Shown here: one piece after another, positions 3,462 to 32,863 of the stretch
Layout of the letters: every line of letters starts with the position of its first letter
How positions within the stretch are numbered: position 1 is the first letter of the stretch
Source of the DNA: the human T2T-CHM13v2.0 reference genome, Homo sapiens
Length of the DNA stretch: 64,000 bases
Reading direction: 5' to 3' (one strand)
Assembly: GCF_009914755.1 (NCBI RefSeq)
Contig: NC_060932.1
Program-made: the position numbers and the translations under genes
The notes under the pieces: model-generated
Told to the model about the DNA's origin: nothing
The model's database searches: none
Seen by the model: the letters and a program-made list of their open reading frames with translations, nothing else

Positions 3462-3897
3462 TTCTGGTTGCTAATATTTTGTTGAGGAATTTTGCATCTA
3501 TGTTCATCAGGATTATTGGCCTGAAGTTTTCTTTTTTTCATTGTGTCTCTGTCAGATTTTGGTATCAAGATGATGCTGGCTTTGCAGAATGAGCTATGGA
3601 GGAGTCCTCCTCCTCAATTTTTTTTGAATAATTTCAGTAGGATTGGCACTAGTTTTTCTTTGCACATCTGGTAGAATTTGGCTGTAAGTCCATCTGGTCA
3701 AGGGCTGTTTTGGTTTGTAGGATTTTTTAAATTACTGATTCAGTTTAAGAACTTGTTATTGGTCTGTTTAGGTTTCTACATTCATCTCGGTTCAATGTTT
3801 CCAAGAATGTATCCATTTCCTCTAGATATTTGACTTTGTGTGCATAAAGGTGTTCATAAATGTCTCTGAAGATCTTTTGTGTTTCTGTGGGATGGAT
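3462..3897 (-). mobile_element. Inverted 5' segment (ORF2) of a younger L1PB/old-L1PA-like insertion
   Basis: Antisense ORF2 (ttgttgaggaattttgcatctatgttcatcagg...); remnant [27 protein letters not shown] on the minus strand; begins immediately after the left TSD copy. Confidence 0.85.
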
Positions 3898-25655: not shown

Positions 25656-27162
25656 AATGTTTAGGGAAACAGAAGGGGTTTTACTTTCCTGACTCTTCAT
25701 ATCACTGCAGAATACATTTAAATCCTTGTTTTAAACACACTTTAGTTATTTCATTTTCTTGCTTGACCTTCTCTTACTCTCTATTTCAAGTGGCCATTTT
25801 CAGGGCAGGAGAGAAAAAAAAAAACCCTTCCTTTTGTATGCAAAGCTATTTAGGGTTTTTCCATGCCCTGTGTCTGGAAATATAGCCAGGGATCATCTTT
25901 TGCAATTACAAAAACTCAGTATTGATATGAATGTTGTGCTCTAGGTGTCTATCTAAACTCTTAGGCAAAGAGTCTTCTTCTACACAGTGGAGCTTGTAGT
26001 TTGCTTCATCCATTTCTAACAGACCCATGGGAATTTTGATAAGGCTAACTAATATTTTCACTAAGCAGTACGACCCTTTTCTACTAGCAAGTAGAACTCT
26101 TATGCTGGCCCTATGTCTTGGAATGCTTTCCTTGAAAAATATTAAGCTTTTTTCCAATGCCCATGACCAACCAACTCTGCTAGTGTCACCTAAGTGCTGA
26201 CCCATGTGAGCCCTGTTCTTGGTTTTCCCTTTAAGTTGATTTTCAAAACTCCATCTTATCCTCATGCAGGATTAACTAGAGGCTTTGGAAATTTCCATGC
26301 CTTACGCCTGTGAAATTTTGCAGGGAATAGTCGGTGGTCATGGCCAATTTTAGGATGTCAACTGAGGAAGGAATTGCTGCTGCCGTTTTCTCCTTCTCCC
26401 CTAAAGTACTTTCTTGGAGTCTACAGACGTCTTAGAAGCAAATCTGTCATCAAGTTTTACTAAAAAAAAGAGTATAAAAGTTTTGGAGACTTCAAATATT
26501 CTGACAAAATGTTTAATACTCAATTGTATGTGACACTGATAATATGAGGGTTAATCAGATGTTAGAAGCATCTGGGGTCTAATTAGACTTCTACTGTGTT
26601 TTGATAGATGCTAGATTTTTGCAACACAAGATAGAAATTCAAATTGTGTTCACTCTTCTGCATACTTTGAATATAAGAGAAAATAAACAGGTAAGGGCTA
26701 AGAAGGGAGTAATAAATCATTACTATCTATGTGCTGCACATATCAAAAAATATTTTTGAAGAATTCTGAAGAGAAGTCAGATACTGTAATGCATTGTTGG
26801 GAATGCTGAGGATATGGAATGCATAGCTTTTAGTCAAGTGGACTTTCCAGCCTTGACCCACCCATACACGTTTTTGACATCATGATGTTCAGGAAAGGAA
26901 GGAGAAGACAAAGTTCAGGGGCTCCATCATTCCTAAACTTTTCCTTCCTACATACACGCATACATCCACATTCTACCAACACCACTCACAGAAATAGCTA
27001 CAAAGTTTGCACAATTCTGGGCCATAGAAAATGTGCAGAGAGTTCGTAGGACACATTGATGCTTCATCTCTTCTAATCTAAATGACACAATGAGAGTTTT
27101 AGGTGAAATCAAGGTGCAAGATCTGTCAAGAACTGACTTTGAAGATCATTTTTTTTTTTTTA

Positions 27163-27589
27163 TGAGCAACATGGCTGTTTATTTCACCTGGGTGCAGGTG
27201 CTGTGAGTCCGAAAAGAGTCAGCAAAGCGTGATTCTTTGGTTCAAAACCAAAGAACCATTAGTTCTTATAGGTTTTGGGATAGGCGGTGAAGTTAAGAGC
27301 AATGTTTTGTGGGCAGGGGTGGATCTCACAAAGTAAATTGTCAAGGGTGGGGAGAATTACAAAGAACCTTCTTAAGGGTGGGGTAGATTACAAAGTATCT
27401 TCTTAAGGGTGGGGGAGATTTCAAAGTACATTGATAAGTTAGGGTGGGGCAGAAACAAATCACAATGGTGGAATGTCATCAGTTAAGGCTATTTTTACTT
27501 TTTTTGTGGATCTTCAGTTACTTCAGGCCATCTGGATGTATAAGTGCAAGTCATAGGGGATGCGATGGCTTGGGCTCAGAGGCCTGACA
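27163..27589 (-). promoter_or_regulatory. HERV-H 3' LTR remnant (U3-R only; type II / LTR7B-like)
   Basis: Minus strand starts TGTCAGGCCTCTGAGCCCAAGC after PPT AAGAAGGCAGGAA; ~30-bp U3 repeats (cccacccttaagaag); TATAAGA box ~27264-27270; AATAAA then GTTGCTCAT-polyA. Confidence 0.9.
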
Positions 27590-27899
27590 TTCCTGCCTTC
27601 TTATATTAATAAGAAAAATAAAACAAAATAGTGTTGAAGTGTTGGGGTGGCGAAAATTTTGGGGCGGTGGTATGGAGAGAGAATGGGCGATGTTTCTCAG
27701 GGCTGCTTCAAGCGGGATTAGGGGTGGCGTGGGAACCTACAGTGGGAGAGATTAAGCTGAAGGGAGGTCTTGTGGTAAGGGGTGATATTGTGGGGATGTT
27801 AGAAGAAACATTTGTCGTATAGAATGATTGGTGATGGCCTGGATACGGTTTTGTATGAATTGAAAAACTAAGTGGAATAAGAGAAGGAGAAAAACAGGT

Positions 27900-30100
27900 A
27901 TAAAATATCTAAGAATTGGGAGGACCTAGGACATCTGATTAGAGAGTGCCTAAGGAGATTCAGCATAGTCCTGCCAGCAAAGATTATTTATTTACTTCAA
28001 GAGTTAAGAATGGCAGTTTGGGGATAGCAGGAGGAGATATCAGCTGTGATGGCTTGGAGAAACAGTGTAAACTGGCAGTGTAAACAAGAGCAGGGCATGT
28101 ATGAGTAGTTGAGAATGGTGAATAGGAGTACGACTAGACAAAAGATAGTAGGGATGACCAGGTTTTTGGGGGCACAGTCTAAGTTGGTCTGGTGTCTGGA
28201 ATGAGACTGGGGCCTAATAAAAAGGAACGTCTATACAGGAGCTTAAATGGGCTGTACCTTATAACATTCTGAGGACAGGTCTGACTTCTGAGAAGGGAAA
28301 GTGGCAAAAGTATTGTCTAGTCCTTTTTAAGTTGGTGGCTGAGTTTGGTGAGGTGTGTTTTTAAAAGACCTTCAGTACGTTCTACTTTTCTTGAAGATGG
28401 ATGACCATAAGGGATATAAAGGTTTCACTGAACACTGAGAGCCTGAAAAACTGCTTGGCTGAATTGACTAATAAAGGCTGGTCTGTTATCAGACTGTATA
28501 GAGGTGGGAAGGCTAAACTGAGGAATTATGTCTGACAGAAGGGAAGAAATGACTGCAGTGGCCTTCTCAGACCCTGTAGGAAAGGCCTCTACCTATCCAG
28601 TGAAAGTGTCTACCTAGACTAAGAGGTATTTTAGTTATCTGACTCGGGGCATGTTGAGTAAAGCTAATTTGCCAGTCCTGGGTGGGGGCAAATCCTCAAG
28701 CTTGATGTGTAGGGAAGGGAGGGGGCCTGAATAATCCATGAGGAGTAGTAGAATAGCAGATGGAACACTGAGAAGTTATTTCCTTGAGGATAGATTTCCA
28801 CGATGGAAAGGAAATGAGAGTTTCTAAGAGGCGGGCTAGTGGCTTGTACTATAGCATATCCTGCCTTTGCTGGTGTGTGGTGATTAGGCCTGATGGAACT
28901 GCCATCAATAAATCAAGCGTGATCAGGGTGAGGAACAGGAAAGAAGGAAATATGTGGAAATGGGTTGAATGTCAGGTGGATCAGAGAGATACAGTCATGG
29001 GGGTCAGGTGTGGTATCAGGAATAATGTGGGAGGCCGGATTGAAGTCCGGGCCAGGAACAATGGTAATTGTGGGACTTAACAAAGAGTGAGTACAGCTGA
29101 AGGAGCCGGGGAGCAGAAAGTATATGCATCAGGTATGAGGAAGAGAATAGATTTTGGAAGTTATGAGAAATGTAGAGAGTCAGTTGGGCATAGTTTGTGA
29201 TTTTGAGGGCCTCTAAAAGTATTAGGGCGGCAGCACGCTGCACGGAGACATGATGGCTAGGCTAGAACAGTAAGGTCAAGTTGTTTGCACAGAAAGGCTA
29301 CAGGGTGCGGTCCTGGCTCTTGTGTAAGAATTGTGACCACATTAACCATGCCTAGGAAGGAAAGGAGTTGTTGTTTTGTAAGGGATTGAGGTTTGGGAGA
29401 TTAATTGGACATGATCAGCAGGGAAAGCACGTGTGTTTTTATAAGAATTATGCCGAGATAGGTAACAGATGAGGATGAAATTTGGGCTTGACTGAAGTAA
29501 TGGGGGCTGTCTGTGAAGCCTTGCGGCAGTACAGCCCAGGCAATTTGCTGAGCCTAATGGGTGTCAGGGTCAGTCCAAGTGAAAGCGAAGAGAGGCTGGG
29601 ATGATGGGTGCAAAGGAATAGTAAAGAAAGCTTGTTTAAGATCCAGAACAGAATAATGGATTGTGGAGGGAGGTATTGAGGATAGGAGAGTATATGGGTT
29701 TGGCACCATGGGTGGATAGGCAAAACAATTTGGTTGATAAGGCATAGATCCTGAACTAACTTGTAAGGCTTGTCTGGTTTTAGGACAGGTAAAATGGGGG
29801 AATTGTAAGGAGAGTTTATAGGCTTTAAAATGCCATGCTGTAGCAGGCGAGTGATAACAGGCTTTAATCCTTTCAAAGCATGCTGTGGGATGGGATTTTG
29901 GCATTGATCGGGGTAAGAGTGATTAGGTTGTAATGAGATGGTAAAGGGTGCATGATCGGTCGCCAAGGAGGAAGTAGAGGTATCTTATACTTGTGGGTTA
30001 AGGTGGGGGGAATACAAGAGGAGGACGCAAAGGAGGCTTTGGATTGGGAAGAAGGGCAGCAATGAGATGTAGCTGTAATCCAGGAATAGTCAGGGAAGCA
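27900..30100 (-). pseudogene. pol: HERV-H pro/pol remnant (RT, RNase H, partial IN), frameshifted
   Basis: ORFs 29448-29966 ([28 protein letters not shown]) and 29554-29904 ([27 protein letters not shown]) are RT motifs in two frames; boundaries approximate. Confidence 0.85.
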
Positions 30101-30449
30101 GAAAATTTAGTTAAAGTGTCTCAGCCTAATAAGGGAACTGGGCAGGTGGGGATAACTAAAAAGGAGTGCTTAAAAGAGTATTGTCTAAGTTGGCACCAGA
30201 GTTGGGGAGTTTTAAGAGGTTTAGAAGCCTGGCCGTCAATACCCACAGCACGTTATGGAGGCAAGGGAAACAGGCCCTTGAAAAGAAGGTAATGTGGAGT
30301 GGGTAGCCTCTGTATTGATTAAGAAGGGGGCGGGCTTACCTTCCACTGTGAGAATTACCTGAAGCTCAGCGTCCGTGATGGTTTAGGAGGCTTCTGAGGC
30401 AATCGGGCAGTGTCAGTCTTCAGCTGCTAAGCCGAGAAGATCTGGGAAG

Positions 30450-31622
30450 GAGTCAGTCAGAGAGCCTTGGGCCAGAGTTCCAGGGGCTCTGGGAGTGGCT
30501 ACCAGGTGAGTTGAACAGTCCGATTTTCAGTGGGGTCCCACACAGATGGGACGCAGCTTAGGAGGAATCCCGGGTTGCGGGCATTCCTTGGCCTAGTGGG
30601 CAGATTTCTGGCACGTGTAGCAAGCTCTTGGGGGAGGAGTTTCTGGAGGAACGTCTGGCTGCTGTGGTTCAGGCGTTTGGAAGTTCTTGTGTGCTGGAGA
30701 TGTGGCTGGGGTTTGTCTCACAGAGGAGGCAAGGAATTGCAGCTTTTTTCTATTATTGTACACCTTGAAGGTGAGGTTAATTAAGTCTTGTTGTGGGGTT
30801 TGAGGGCAAGATTCTAATTTTTGGAGTTTTATTTAATGTCGGGAGCAGATTGGGTAATAAAATGTATATTGGGAATAAGACAGCCTTTTGACCTTTTAGG
30901 GTCTAGGGCTGTAAAGCGTCTCAGGGTTGCTGCCAAACGAGCCATGAACTGGGCTGGATTTTTATATTTGATGAAAAAGAGCCTAAACGCTATTTGATTT
31001 GGGGTAAAGAAAAAGGAGCATTAACCTTGACTATGCCTTTAGCTCCAGCCACCTTTTTAAGAATAAATTGCTGGGCAGGTGGAGGAGGGCTAGTCATGGA
31101 ACGAAACTGTAAGCCAGACCAGGTGTGAGAAGGGGAGGTGATAAAAGGATTATAGGGTGGAGGAGCAGAGGCTGAGGAAGAATTGGGACCTAGCTCGGCC
31201 TGGCGAGGAGGGGAGGGGTCAGATGGGTCTGTAGAAAAGGAAGATTAGAAAGACTCAGCGACACTTGGGGTTGGGACTGAGGGGACAGGTGGGAGGGAAA
31301 GAAGGAAGATTTGGGATGAGTTGCATTGGGCACAGAGACTAGGAAGGGACCGATGTGTAAAAGAATGCCTGGACATCAGGCACCTCAGACGATTTGCCTA
31401 TTTTATGACAATTATTATTTAGATCTTGTAGGATGGAAAAATTGAATGTGCCGTTTTCTGGCTATTTGGAACTACTGTTGAGTTTGTTTTGGGGTCAAGC
31501 GCATTGCAGAAGAAAATAAGATGCTTAGATTTTAGGTCAGGTGAGAGTTGAAGAGGTTTTAAGTTCTTAAGAACACAGGCTAAGTGAGAAGAAGGAGGAA
31601 CGGAAGGTGGAAGCTTGCCCAT
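30450..31622 (-). pseudogene. gag: HERV-H gag remnant
   Basis: MGKLPPSVPPSSHLACVLKNLKPLQL..HLIFFCN gamma-type matrix start at 31622; downstream disrupted. Confidence 0.75.
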
Positions 31623-31649
31623 AGTGAAGGAGGCAAGTCCAGAGAAAAG

Positions 31650-31930
31650 AGTAGAGACACGGAGAAGGGGTGGGGGGTTCTTGCCCTCCAGAAAAGCAGA
31701 GAAGGGGTTGGGGCATGGAAATAAGAGGTCAGGGTGCGGAAATAAGGGATTGGGGGTTCTTGTCCCCTAGAAAAGCGGGACTTGATGTTAAGGGTGAAGG
31801 AGAAGGGGTTGAAGGGTACTTGCCCCTCCCCCAGAAAAGCAGAGAAGGGGTACAGACATGGAGAGAAGGGGTTGGGGTACTTGTCCCTCCGCCAGAAAAG
31901 TGGGGCTTGCCACTAAGGGTGAAGGACCAA
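31650..31930 (-). repeat. HERV-H leader imperfect tandem repeats
   Basis: Repeated agaaggggttgggg..cttgcccctccc.cagaaaagc units. Confidence 0.7.
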
Positions 31931-32342
31931 GGCAGGCGTCCCTGTGTGGTCTGACAGCTTTGAAACGTGGGTGAATAATCGGAGAGGTGTCCCTGAAATG
32001 ATTAAACACCAAGGGAAGGCTGCCTTCCCAGTCCATGACCGGCGTTGGAGTTTTGGGTCCACGGATAAAACGTGTCTCCTTTGTCTCTACCAGAAAATGA
32101 AAGGAATTGAAATTAAGAGAAGGGAGAGATTGAAGTGTGGTGCCAAGATTGAAAGGACAAAGAGGTTGAGGGATAGTGAGGGAGGTTGGAGAAGAGAGTA
32201 AAAAGAGGCCGCTTACCGGATTTGAAATTGGTGAGATGTTTCTTGGGCTGGTCGGTCTGAGGACCTGAGGTTGTAAGTGGATGTTTCTCATGGAGCAAAG
32301 AGCAGGAGGATGGGGCATTGATCTCCCAAGGGAGGTCCCCCG

Positions 32343-32360
32343 ATCCAAGTCACAGCACCA
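32343..32360 (-). other. Primer binding site, tRNA-His
   Basis: Minus strand TGGTGCTGTGACTTGGAT, CpG-decayed form of TGGTGCCGTGACTCGGAT, directly after U5. Confidence 0.9.
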
Positions 32361-32362
32361 AA

Positions 32363-32469
32363 TTTCATGTGTGTCCGTGTGAAGAGACCACCAAACAGGC
32401 TTTGTGTGAGCAACATGGCTGTTTATTTCACCTGGGTGCAGGCGGGCTGAGTCCGAAAAGAGAGTCAGC
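32363..32469 (-). other. HERV-H 5' LTR remnant (R-U5 only)
   Basis: Minus strand GCTGACTCTCTTTTCGGACTCAGCCCGCC...AATAAACAGCC...CTCTTCACACGGACACACATGAAA; no U3 upstream. Confidence 0.92.
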
Positions 32470-32513
32470 CTGGAGATCATTTTTAATGCCCACTAAAAAA
32501 ATTTAAAGCTGTA

Positions 32514-32863
32514 CAGAGAGAATATCTCTTATCTAAAATGCTTTGGGACCAGAAGTGTCTCACACTTTGAATTTTTGGGGGGGTTTTGGAATATTTGCAT
32601 TTACAGAATAAGATATCCTGGAGATGGGACCTCTGTCTAAAAACAAAATTTATGTTTTTTATATACTTTAAACATACAGCCTGAAGGTAATTTTATACAA
32701 TATTTTAAGTAATTTTTTGCATAAAACAAAAGTTATGATTGCAACATATCACATGAGGTCAAGTGTGGGATCTTCCGCTTGTGGCATCATGTTAGTCCTC
32801 AAAAAGTTTTAGATTTTGGAGCATTTCACATTTTGAATTTTTAGATTAGGGATGTTTAACTTG
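32514..32863 (+). mobile_element. Tigger4b/MER46-like (Zombi) MITE
   Basis: ttatctaaaatgctttgggaccagaagtg ... ttttggagcatttc..attagggatgtttaacttg; TA on both sides. Confidence 0.85.

What the first reader, a model, noticed from the sequence alone, without database searches (positions are those of the whole stretch)
27140..32486. HERV-H copied into the genome by L1 machinery as a polyadenylated mRNA (processed ERV), not by its own integrase
Seen: on the minus strand the element starts in R (GCTGACTCTCTTTTCGG, 32469) with no U3. It runs through U5, PBS-His, gag/pol and the PPT, then U3-R, and stops about 14 nt after AATAAA in a poly(A) tract with no U5. It is flanked by a 14-bp TSD (tgaagatcattttt / tggagatcattttt, 1 mismatch), and the right copy ends TTTTT/AA. 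Established: integrase-made proviruses have two complete TG..CA LTRs and a 4-6 bp TSD, whereas L1 ORF2p target-primed insertions have polyA, longer TSDs and a TTTT/AA nick site. Such copies are well known for HERV-W and, to my knowledge, much less often reported for HERV-H. Inference: this is a fossil full-length genomic-RNA cDNA that records the TSS and poly(A) site of an LTR7B-type HERV-H expressed in germline or early embryo. It has no 5' promoter and would probably be annotated as an ordinary provirus.
Basis: partly seen in the sequence, partly recalled or inferred. Interest (0 to 1): 0.85.

Follow-up and report, generated by a model that had tools for sequence, protein, structure and literature searches.

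The report
L1-made retrocopy of HERV-H RNA
This 5.3-kb HERV-H copy was pasted into the genome by the LINE-1 machinery as a capped, polyadenylated RNA copy rather than by retroviral integration, and it is one of dozens of such HERV-H copies in this human genome, a class that reviews usually credit only to HERV-W.

Summary
On the minus strand the element starts at the first base of R, preceded by one extra G and no U3 (32470/32469). It runs through U5, a tRNA-His primer binding site, decayed gag-pol and a 3' U3-R. It ends 15 nt after AATAAA in T+A13 with no U5, and is flanked by a 14-bp target duplication (13/14) preceded by TT/AAAAA. An ordinary HERV-H provirus in the same genome has full LTRs and a 5-bp duplication.

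It is not a one-off. The genome holds 50 LTR7 R-poly(A) junctions against 1640 R-U5 junctions. I confirmed 13 further copies that start at R, end in poly(A) and carry 13-19 bp duplications. I also saw one R-only copy, a 5'-truncated copy, one 5' inversion and two apparently spliced forms. Twelve of 15 R-start copies carry the extra 5' G, which 0 of 29 U3-R junctions have; this fits a copied cap.

The mechanism is the one known for HERV-W. I found no open-access report of it for HERV-H, and one review calls W the sole such group, but the key older papers could not be read. The orthologous empty site could not be tested. Moderate interest.

The parts
32485..32486 (-). TT immediately 5' of the duplication; with the AAAAA that follows it forms the TT/AAAAA L1 endonuclease nick motif (TTTTT/AA on the + strand)
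32471..32484 (-). 5' copy of the 14-bp target-site duplication, AAAAATGATCTCCA
32470..32470 (-). Extra G ahead of R, absent from the U3-R junction of this element's own 3' LTR (T there); probably the reverse-transcribed cap
32407..32469 (-). 5' R (63 nt), from GCTGACTC to ...GCTCA, with AATAAA at 32427-32422
32361..32406 (-). U5 (44 nt, ending ATGAAA) plus a TT spacer
   Evidence: U5 end defined on the control provirus
32343..32360 (-). Primer binding site for tRNA-His, 16 of 18 bases, with two CpG-to-TpG changes
27590..32342 (-). Internal region: leader with an unspliced GGTAAG donor at about 32217, decayed gag (Gag_p30-like, 30832-31020), decayed pol (RVT_1-like, 29557-29922), and a purine tract just before U3. 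No long open frame. The sense strand is 14% G and 32% C.
27224..27589 (-). 3' U3 (366 nt), starting TGTCAGGCC, with three 31-bp tandem repeats (27328-27438) and TATAAGA at 27270-27264
27163..27223 (-). 3' R (61 nt), with AATAAA at 27183-27178, ending ...GCTCA at the poly(A) site; no U5 follows
27154..27162 (-). T plus the 8 A's of the poly(A) tail that lie outside the duplication (the A run totals 13, 27161-27149)
27140..27153 (-). 3' copy of the target-site duplication, AAAAATGATCTTCA

Best explanation
The element is a processed retrocopy of an unspliced HERV-H proviral transcript, made by LINE-1 target-primed reverse transcription.

Inferred sequence of events:
1. A source provirus elsewhere was transcribed from the start site in its 5' LTR and polyadenylated at the R/U5 border of its 3' LTR.
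2. L1 ORF2p nicked the window's + strand at TTTTT/AA.
3. The freed T run annealed to the poly(A) tail and primed cDNA synthesis up to the cap, which added one G.
4. A second nick 14 bp away produced the duplication.

What the sequence shows directly: the boundaries, the A tail, the duplication, the nick motif and the extra G.

What is inferred: L1 as the enzyme, the cap as the origin of the G, and a germline or early-embryo setting.

The copy has no 5' promoter and no coding capacity. It is an old, inert fossil.
For: Boundaries: the 5' end lies at the R start with no U3, and the 3' end lies at the poly(A) site with A13 and no U5. At the left junction the + strand reads duplication copy, then a T run, then the antisense R end. 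This is the order expected when the nicked T run primes on poly(A).

Duplication and nick site: the 14-bp duplication matches at 13 of 14 positions, P = 1.6e-7 at a fixed register, and is preceded by TT/AAAAA.

Control: an ordinary provirus in the same genome has complete LTRs and a 5-bp duplication.

Class behaviour across the genome:
- The pattern 'R end plus poly(A)' gives 50 places, against 0 for the reversed-pattern control. All 30 of the 30 places fetched are LTR7 sequence upstream of the junction.
- Eleven of those loci extend more than 1.5 kb upstream. Nine of the 11 start at R without U3 and have 13-19 bp duplications. One is truncated in U5 and has a perfect 16-bp duplication. One is truncated further in.
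- Four more R-start/poly(A) pairs were confirmed with duplications.
- One locus has a 5' inversion (L032), and one is an R-only copy with a duplication (L013).

Extra 5' G: it is unambiguous in 12 of 15 R-start copies, ambiguous in 2 and absent in 1. By contrast, 0 of 29 U3-R junctions in the 3' LTRs of the same loci have a G there.

Start site position: the shared start lies about 31 nt downstream of the TATA box in an intact LTR7.
Against: - No orthologous or paralogous empty site could be examined. The left flank is unique, and the right flank becomes an old repeat only from about 32511.
- No source provirus was found. The closest relatives of the 3' 1.7 kb are 91-94% identical.
- The A tail is short (13 A).
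- A G before GCTGAC also occurs in some U3-bearing LTR7s: 24 of the 38 exact matches listed. For a single locus, therefore, the extra G could have been templated.
- L1 itself is inferred from the hallmarks, not shown.
Confidence: 0.95

Rival explanations
1. An ordinary integrase-made HERV-H provirus that later lost its 5' U3 and 3' U5 through two independent deletions.
For: HERV-H copies carry many deletions relative to each other. The 6-mer ATCTCC in the 5' flank resembles the end of LTR7 U3, so 2 of 40 alignments reach back to query base 10.
Against: Both deletions would have to end exactly at the transcription start and at the poly(A) site. They would also have to leave an A13 run and a 13/14 duplication flush with both ends. 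The same architecture recurs at 13 or more other loci with different flanks. The 3' flank copy matches the whole 14-mer, not only ATCTCC.
Confidence: 0.01
2. A HERV-H cDNA made by some other reverse transcriptase, or captured at a double-strand break independently of L1 endonuclease.
For: L1 proteins are not observed directly. Endonuclease-independent insertions are known from the general literature (recalled).
Against: The TT/AAAAA nick motif and the 14-bp duplication are the endonuclease-dependent signature. Most of the other copies also show T-rich/A-rich sites, for example TT/AGAA at four loci and TT/AAAA at L013. Retroviral reverse transcription would rebuild full LTRs, as in the control provirus.
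Confidence: 0.03
3. A retrocopy of a host lncRNA or chimeric transcript that merely contains HERV-H, rather than of a proviral transcript.
For: Many LTR7-driven lncRNAs exist (review PMC12228294, passages seen).
Against: Nothing but HERV-H sequence lies between the two duplication copies, from the R start to the R end. The leader splice donor is unspliced. An LTR-to-LTR unspliced transcript is the proviral RNA, so this rival differs in name only.
Confidence: 0.01

Closest known systems
HERV-W processed pseudogenes (Pavlicek et al. 2002, not readable here; criteria as restated in Grandi et al. 2016, PMC5016936, passages seen)
   Same: [quoted passage not shown] All were found here. The HERV-H set also includes 5' truncated copies.
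   Different: The retroviral group differs: LTR7/HERV-H with a tRNA-His primer binding site. The share of the family is much smaller, with about 50 R-poly(A) junctions against 1640 R-U5 junctions. From recall, processed copies are the majority of HERV-W loci. [quoted passage not shown]
Processed pseudogenes of cellular mRNAs made by L1 (Esnault et al. 2000; recalled, not read)
   Same: Promoterless, polyadenylated, flanked by a 7-20 bp duplication, with an L1 nick motif and occasionally an extra 5' G.
   Different: The template is an unspliced, non-coding retroviral genomic RNA of about 5.3 kb. Repeat annotation would therefore probably read it as a provirus. Vargiu et al. [quoted passage not shown]
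Ordinary HERV-H provirus
   Same: Same internal sequence, collinear with other copies at 86-94% identity. Same primer binding site and same LTR family.
   Different: This element lacks 5' U3 and 3' U5 and has a poly(A) tail. Its duplication is 14 bp, against 5 bp in the control provirus.
Spliced HERV-H elements in genomic DNA (Goodchild, Freeman and Mager 1995; recalled, not read)
   Same: HERV-H RNA copied back into DNA.
   Different: As I recall, those elements keep full LTRs, meaning retroviral-type reverse transcription. The window element is unspliced and has the L1 signature. Two short L1-type copies that look spliced were seen elsewhere in the genome.

Membership tests
L1-mediated processed retrocopy | 5' end at the transcription start, with no upstream promoter (U3) | tested here: met
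   R starts at 32469 and no U3 precedes it. In the genome search, 36 of 40 scored alignments begin at this boundary.
L1-mediated processed retrocopy | 3' end at the poly(A) site, followed by an A tail | tested here: met
   AATAAA, then 15 nt, then T and A13, with no U5.
L1-mediated processed retrocopy | Target-site duplication of about 7-20 bp, flush with both ends | tested here: met
   14 bp, 13 of 14 identical; P = 1.6e-7 at a fixed register.
L1-mediated processed retrocopy | Endonuclease nick consensus TT/AAAA | tested here: met
   TT/AAAAA at 32486-32480 on the minus strand.
L1-mediated processed retrocopy | Empty pre-insertion site with a single copy of the target sequence | not testable with these tools
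   No primate genomes are held. The flanks give no paralogous empty site.
HERV-H (LTR7 / HERVH-int) | Primer binding site complementary to tRNA-His | tested here: met
   16 of 18 bases match. ARAGORN calls tRNA-His(GTG) in two genomic loci whose last 15 nt are the complement of the intact HERV-H primer binding site.
HERV-H (LTR7 / HERVH-int) | LTR and internal similarity to the family | tested here: met
   R-U5-leader is 93-96% identical to 39 other scored places out of 2111 candidates. The 3' 1.7 kb is 91-94% identical to 40 others. No named library (Dfam) was available, so the family name rests on the primer binding site, the LTR motifs and recall.
HERV-H (LTR7 / HERVH-int) | Gammaretrovirus-like gag-pol order | tested here: inconclusive
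   Of 20 open-frame fragments, only 2 gave Pfam hits: Gag_p30 (E = 2.9e-4) upstream of RVT_1 (E = 1.1e-4). Both are below the curated cut-offs.
   No Dfam or Repbase library was available. The U3 is of the TATAAGAAC kind found in 11 of the 30 R-poly(A) loci; 18 have TATAAAAYGG-like sequence and 1 has no U3.
Integrase-made provirus | Two complete LTRs (U3-R-U5) | tested here: not met
   The 5' LTR lacks U3 and the 3' LTR lacks U5.
Integrase-made provirus | Target duplication of 4-6 bp | tested here: not met
   14 bp here, against 5 bp (GTCAG) in the control provirus.

The most novel reading that the evidence does not exclude
HERV-H is a second human ERV group with a systematic population of L1-made processed copies. 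T2T-CHM13 holds about 48 independent R-poly(A) insertions, about 3% of LTR7 R ends. At least 14 are intact from cap to tail. The set also includes R-only, 5'-truncated, 5'-inverted and apparently spliced forms.

These copies go unrecognised in HERV-H censuses and contradict the statement that HERV-W is the sole group mobilised by L1. Their cap-G 5' ends fix, to the base, the start site that LTR7 used in the ancestral germline. Their internal structures sample the HERV-H RNA isoforms present there.
Probability: 0.4. Interest if true: 0.55.

Novelty: new member of a known kind. Interest (0 to 1): 0.45.

Why it matters
**Annotation.** Such copies are promoterless at their 5' end and were never integrated by a retrovirus. 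Counting them as proviruses distorts HERV-H copy numbers, LTR-divergence dating (their two R regions do not start identical in the usual sense) and solo-to-provirus ratios.

**Biology.** They are base-resolution fossils of LTR7 start-site and poly(A)-site use. They also show that HERV-H RNA and active L1 were present together in ancestral germline or early-embryo cells.

**Limits.** The mechanism itself is textbook, and this single locus has no evident function.

Tried and rejected
- **Parent provirus.** A search with the 3' 1.7 kb gave nothing above 94% identity, so no source was found.
- **Paralogous empty site.** The left flank is unique. The right flank is an old repeat only from about 40 bp outside the junction. 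This is a dead end.
- **Splicing as the cause of gaps.** I tested whether the internal gaps of other copies, relative to this one, are splices. Seven of the 8 boundaries examined lack GT..AG. Only the chr22 copy has a GGTAAG-type donor near its gap. The gaps are not generally splices.
- **Pfam on 20 open-frame fragments.** Only two sub-threshold hits.
- **Bulk fetch.** I therefore examined only the 11 loci that ran past 1.5 kb, plus 4 pairs found by coordinates. The 20 junctions without loci were otherwise not inspected.
- **Literature.** Eight full-text searches and passages of 13 papers gave no description of HERV-H processed pseudogenes. Pavlicek 2002 (PMC155283) is not held. Jern 2004, Belshaw 2005, Costas 2002 and Goodchild 1995 were not read. 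No supplements were opened.
Full report
**What is in the window.** I read both strands. The element lies on the minus strand. I give its 5' end first.
- The flank ends ...GCATT.
- The 14-mer AAAAATGATCTCCA follows at 32484-32471, then a single G at 32470.
- R begins GCTGACTCTC at 32469 and contains AATAAA at 32427-32422.
- U5 ends ATGAAA and is followed by TT.
- The primer binding site TGGTGCTGTGACTTGGAT lies at 32360-32343.
- No U3 precedes R.

A genome search with this end scored 40 of 2111 candidates. Thirty-six of the 40 LTR7 alignments begin at query base 17-19, exactly at this boundary. The other four are the window's own locus, one other R-start copy (discussed below), and two alignments that reach back to base 10 only because the flank shares the 6-mer ATCTCC with the end of LTR7 U3.

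At the 3' end a purine tract precedes U3, which begins TGTCAGGCC at 27589.
- U3 carries three 31-bp repeats (family D1) and TATAAGA.
- R begins at 27223, with AATAAA at 27183-27178.
- Fifteen nt later the sequence reads ...GCTCA, T, then A13.
- The A run merges into AAAAATGATCTTCA (27153-27140), followed by unrelated flank. There is no U5.

The two 14-mers differ at one position. The chance of that at a fixed register is 1.6e-7. The only long direct repeat shared by the two ends is R, about 62 nt at 90% identity (family D2).

**Identity of the element.**
- The intact form of the primer binding site, seen in other copies, is the exact complement of the last 15 nt of two genomic tRNA-His(GTG) genes plus CCA. 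The window copy matches 16 of 18 bases, and both differences are C-to-T changes at CpG.
- The interior has no long open frame.
- Of 20 frame fragments, 2 gave weak Pfam hits in the right order: Gag_p30 at 30832-31020 and RVT_1 at 29557-29922. Both are below the curated cut-offs.
- The sense strand is 14% G and 32% C. This is the bias quoted for HERV-H in Grandi et al. 2016 (PMC5016936, passage seen).
- The interior is collinear with other HERV-H copies at 86-94% identity. It reads straight through the leader GGTAAG donor, so the template was unspliced.
- The family name rests on these features and on recall of LTR7 motifs, because no Dfam library was available.

**Control.** An ordinary provirus in the same genome (C1:208695...-208700...) has U3-R-U5 at both ends and the 5-bp duplication GTCAG. 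The window element fails both defining features of an integrase-made provirus. It meets every testable feature of an L1-made processed copy:
- a start at the transcription start site;
- an end at the poly(A) site with an A tail;
- a 14-bp duplication;
- a TT/AAAAA nick site.

On the + strand the left junction reads duplication copy, then T run, then antisense R end. This is the order expected if the nicked T run primed on the poly(A) tail.

**It is one of a class.** The human assembly containing the window could be searched.
- The pattern 'R end plus one base plus eight A' occurs at 50 places with up to 2 mismatches, against 0 for the reversed control.
- The corresponding R-U5 pattern occurs at 1640 places, against 0 for its control. 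About 3% of LTR7 R ends are therefore poly(A)-terminated.
- Two of the 50 look like ordinary R-U5 junctions with mismatches, and three chr9 copies share one flank. The number of independent events is nearer 45-48.
- All 30 loci that were fetched have LTR7 sequence upstream of the junction: 29 have U3-R and one has R only.
- Eleven of the 29 loci other than the window's own run past the 1.5 kb held. I fetched further upstream for these in separate pieces and mapped them by coordinates.
- Nine of the 11 begin at R with no U3-like hit upstream, and they have duplications of 13-19 bp.
- One of the 11 is truncated in U5 and has a perfect 16-bp duplication. The last is truncated at element position 3812.
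- Four more R-start/poly(A) pairs, found by matching coordinates, also have duplications.
- A separate search for GG-CTGAC starts not preceded by C-rich U3 ends gave 46 places, against 0 for the control. By my reading of only five upstream bases, about 29 of these are U3-less starts. Eleven of those I checked in sequence.
- One locus has a 5' inversion (L032), and two short copies look spliced.

**The extra G.**
- Fifteen copies start at R: this one, the nine, the four and the R-only copy. Twelve have an unambiguous G between the duplication and GCTGAC, two are ambiguous and one has none.
- At the U3-R junction of the 3' LTRs of the same loci, the base before GCTGAC is C or T in 29 of 29 cases.
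- A G there does occur in some U3-bearing LTRs: 24 of the 38 exact matches listed, out of 733 places in all. For one locus it could therefore have been templated. Across the set, a reverse-transcribed cap is the simpler reading. That such a G marks capped full-length L1-type insertions is recalled knowledge.
- The common start lies about 31 nt downstream of the TATA box in an intact LTR7.

**Age and source.** The best matches to the 3' 1.7 kb are 91-94% identical, so no parent was found and the insertion is old. The short tail, the one changed duplication base and the CpG decay in the primer binding site agree with this. I give no date.

**What could not be done.**
- No primate genomes are held.
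- The left flank is unique, and the right flank is an old repeat only from about 32511. No empty site could be examined.
The 20 junctions without loci were otherwise not inspected, apart from the four pairs.

**Literature.** Grandi et al. 2016 restate Pavlicek's criteria for HERV-W processed pseudogenes, which this element meets (PMC5016936, passages). [quoted passage not shown] Vargiu et al. [quoted passage not shown]

Term searches inside four HERV-H papers found no mention of processed or L1-made copies:
- Carter 2022 (PMC8912925);
- Gemmell 2019 (PMC6629862);
- the 2025 LTR7-HERVH review (PMC12228294);
- Thomas 2018 (PMC6298018).

Eight full-text searches found no report for HERV-H. Pavlicek 2002 is not held. 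Costas 2002, Jern 2004, Belshaw 2005 and Goodchild 1995 were not read, so prior description remains possible. No supplements were opened.

**Verdict.** The mechanism is the one known for HERV-W and for cellular processed pseudogenes. The locus is an inert fossil. The wider point, that HERV-H has a sizeable and seemingly unremarked population of L1-made copies with cap-G 5' ends, gives it moderate interest (0.45).

Noticed in passing
window 27225-27262 (minus strand, 3' U3 between TATA and R): Other TATAAGAAC-type LTRs have a short ATAATCC(C)ACCACCC stretch here. This copy instead has a longer near-palindrome (GGTTCTTTGGTT..AACCAAAGAATC), which moves the TATA box to 47 nt from R instead of about 31. 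It may be a local hairpin-type replacement. The timing, in the source or after insertion, is unknown.
   Followed up: partly
window about 32511-32830: The right flank is an old interspersed repeat, 75-78% identical to the 39 other scored places out of 2267 candidates. The insertion lies about 30-40 bp outside its edge. I did not name the family.
   Followed up: partly
L013 (G000:C14:33487231-33487261, minus): A retrocopy consisting only of R (about 63 nt) plus poly(A), with the extra G and the duplication AAAACTCTGTTCT. It is a transcript that started and was polyadenylated within a single LTR.
   Followed up: partly
L053 (C12:113998706-113999528) and L054 (C15:53520982-53521799): Two retrocopies of about 0.8 kb, both R-start and poly(A)-ended with duplications. 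Their leader stops at the GGTAAG donor (element position about 270) or at about 328 and jumps to internal blocks and the 3' LTR. They look like copies of spliced HERV-H RNAs. The chr22 copy also has a GGTAAG-type donor at its large gap.
   Followed up: partly
L032 (C12:81954714, minus): In this R-poly(A) copy the 5' block is inverted relative to the rest (349 nt on the minus strand abutting the plus-strand part). This is the pattern expected from L1 twin priming.
   Followed up: no
L026, L027, L028 (C9:42408623, C9:47593851, C9:77276267): Three U3-R-poly(A) copies share the same downstream flank. They represent one insertion that was later copied by segmental duplication. C7:144897950 and C7:145067210 look like another such pair.
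   Followed up: no
G000:C3:90149528-90149568: The R start is preceded directly by the reverse complement of R (…ACCTGGGTGCAGGCGG|GCTGAC…), giving a head-to-head R-R junction of unknown origin.
   Followed up: no
one search list, e.g. C1:208695919/208700664, C9:35022766/35028395, C13:53343054/53348398: Some ordinary proviruses carry a G between U3 and R in both of their LTRs (24 U3-bearing places among the 38 exact matches). One possible cause is a cap G copied at strong-stop transfer during retroviral replication and then inherited by both LTRs. This is speculative.
   Followed up: no
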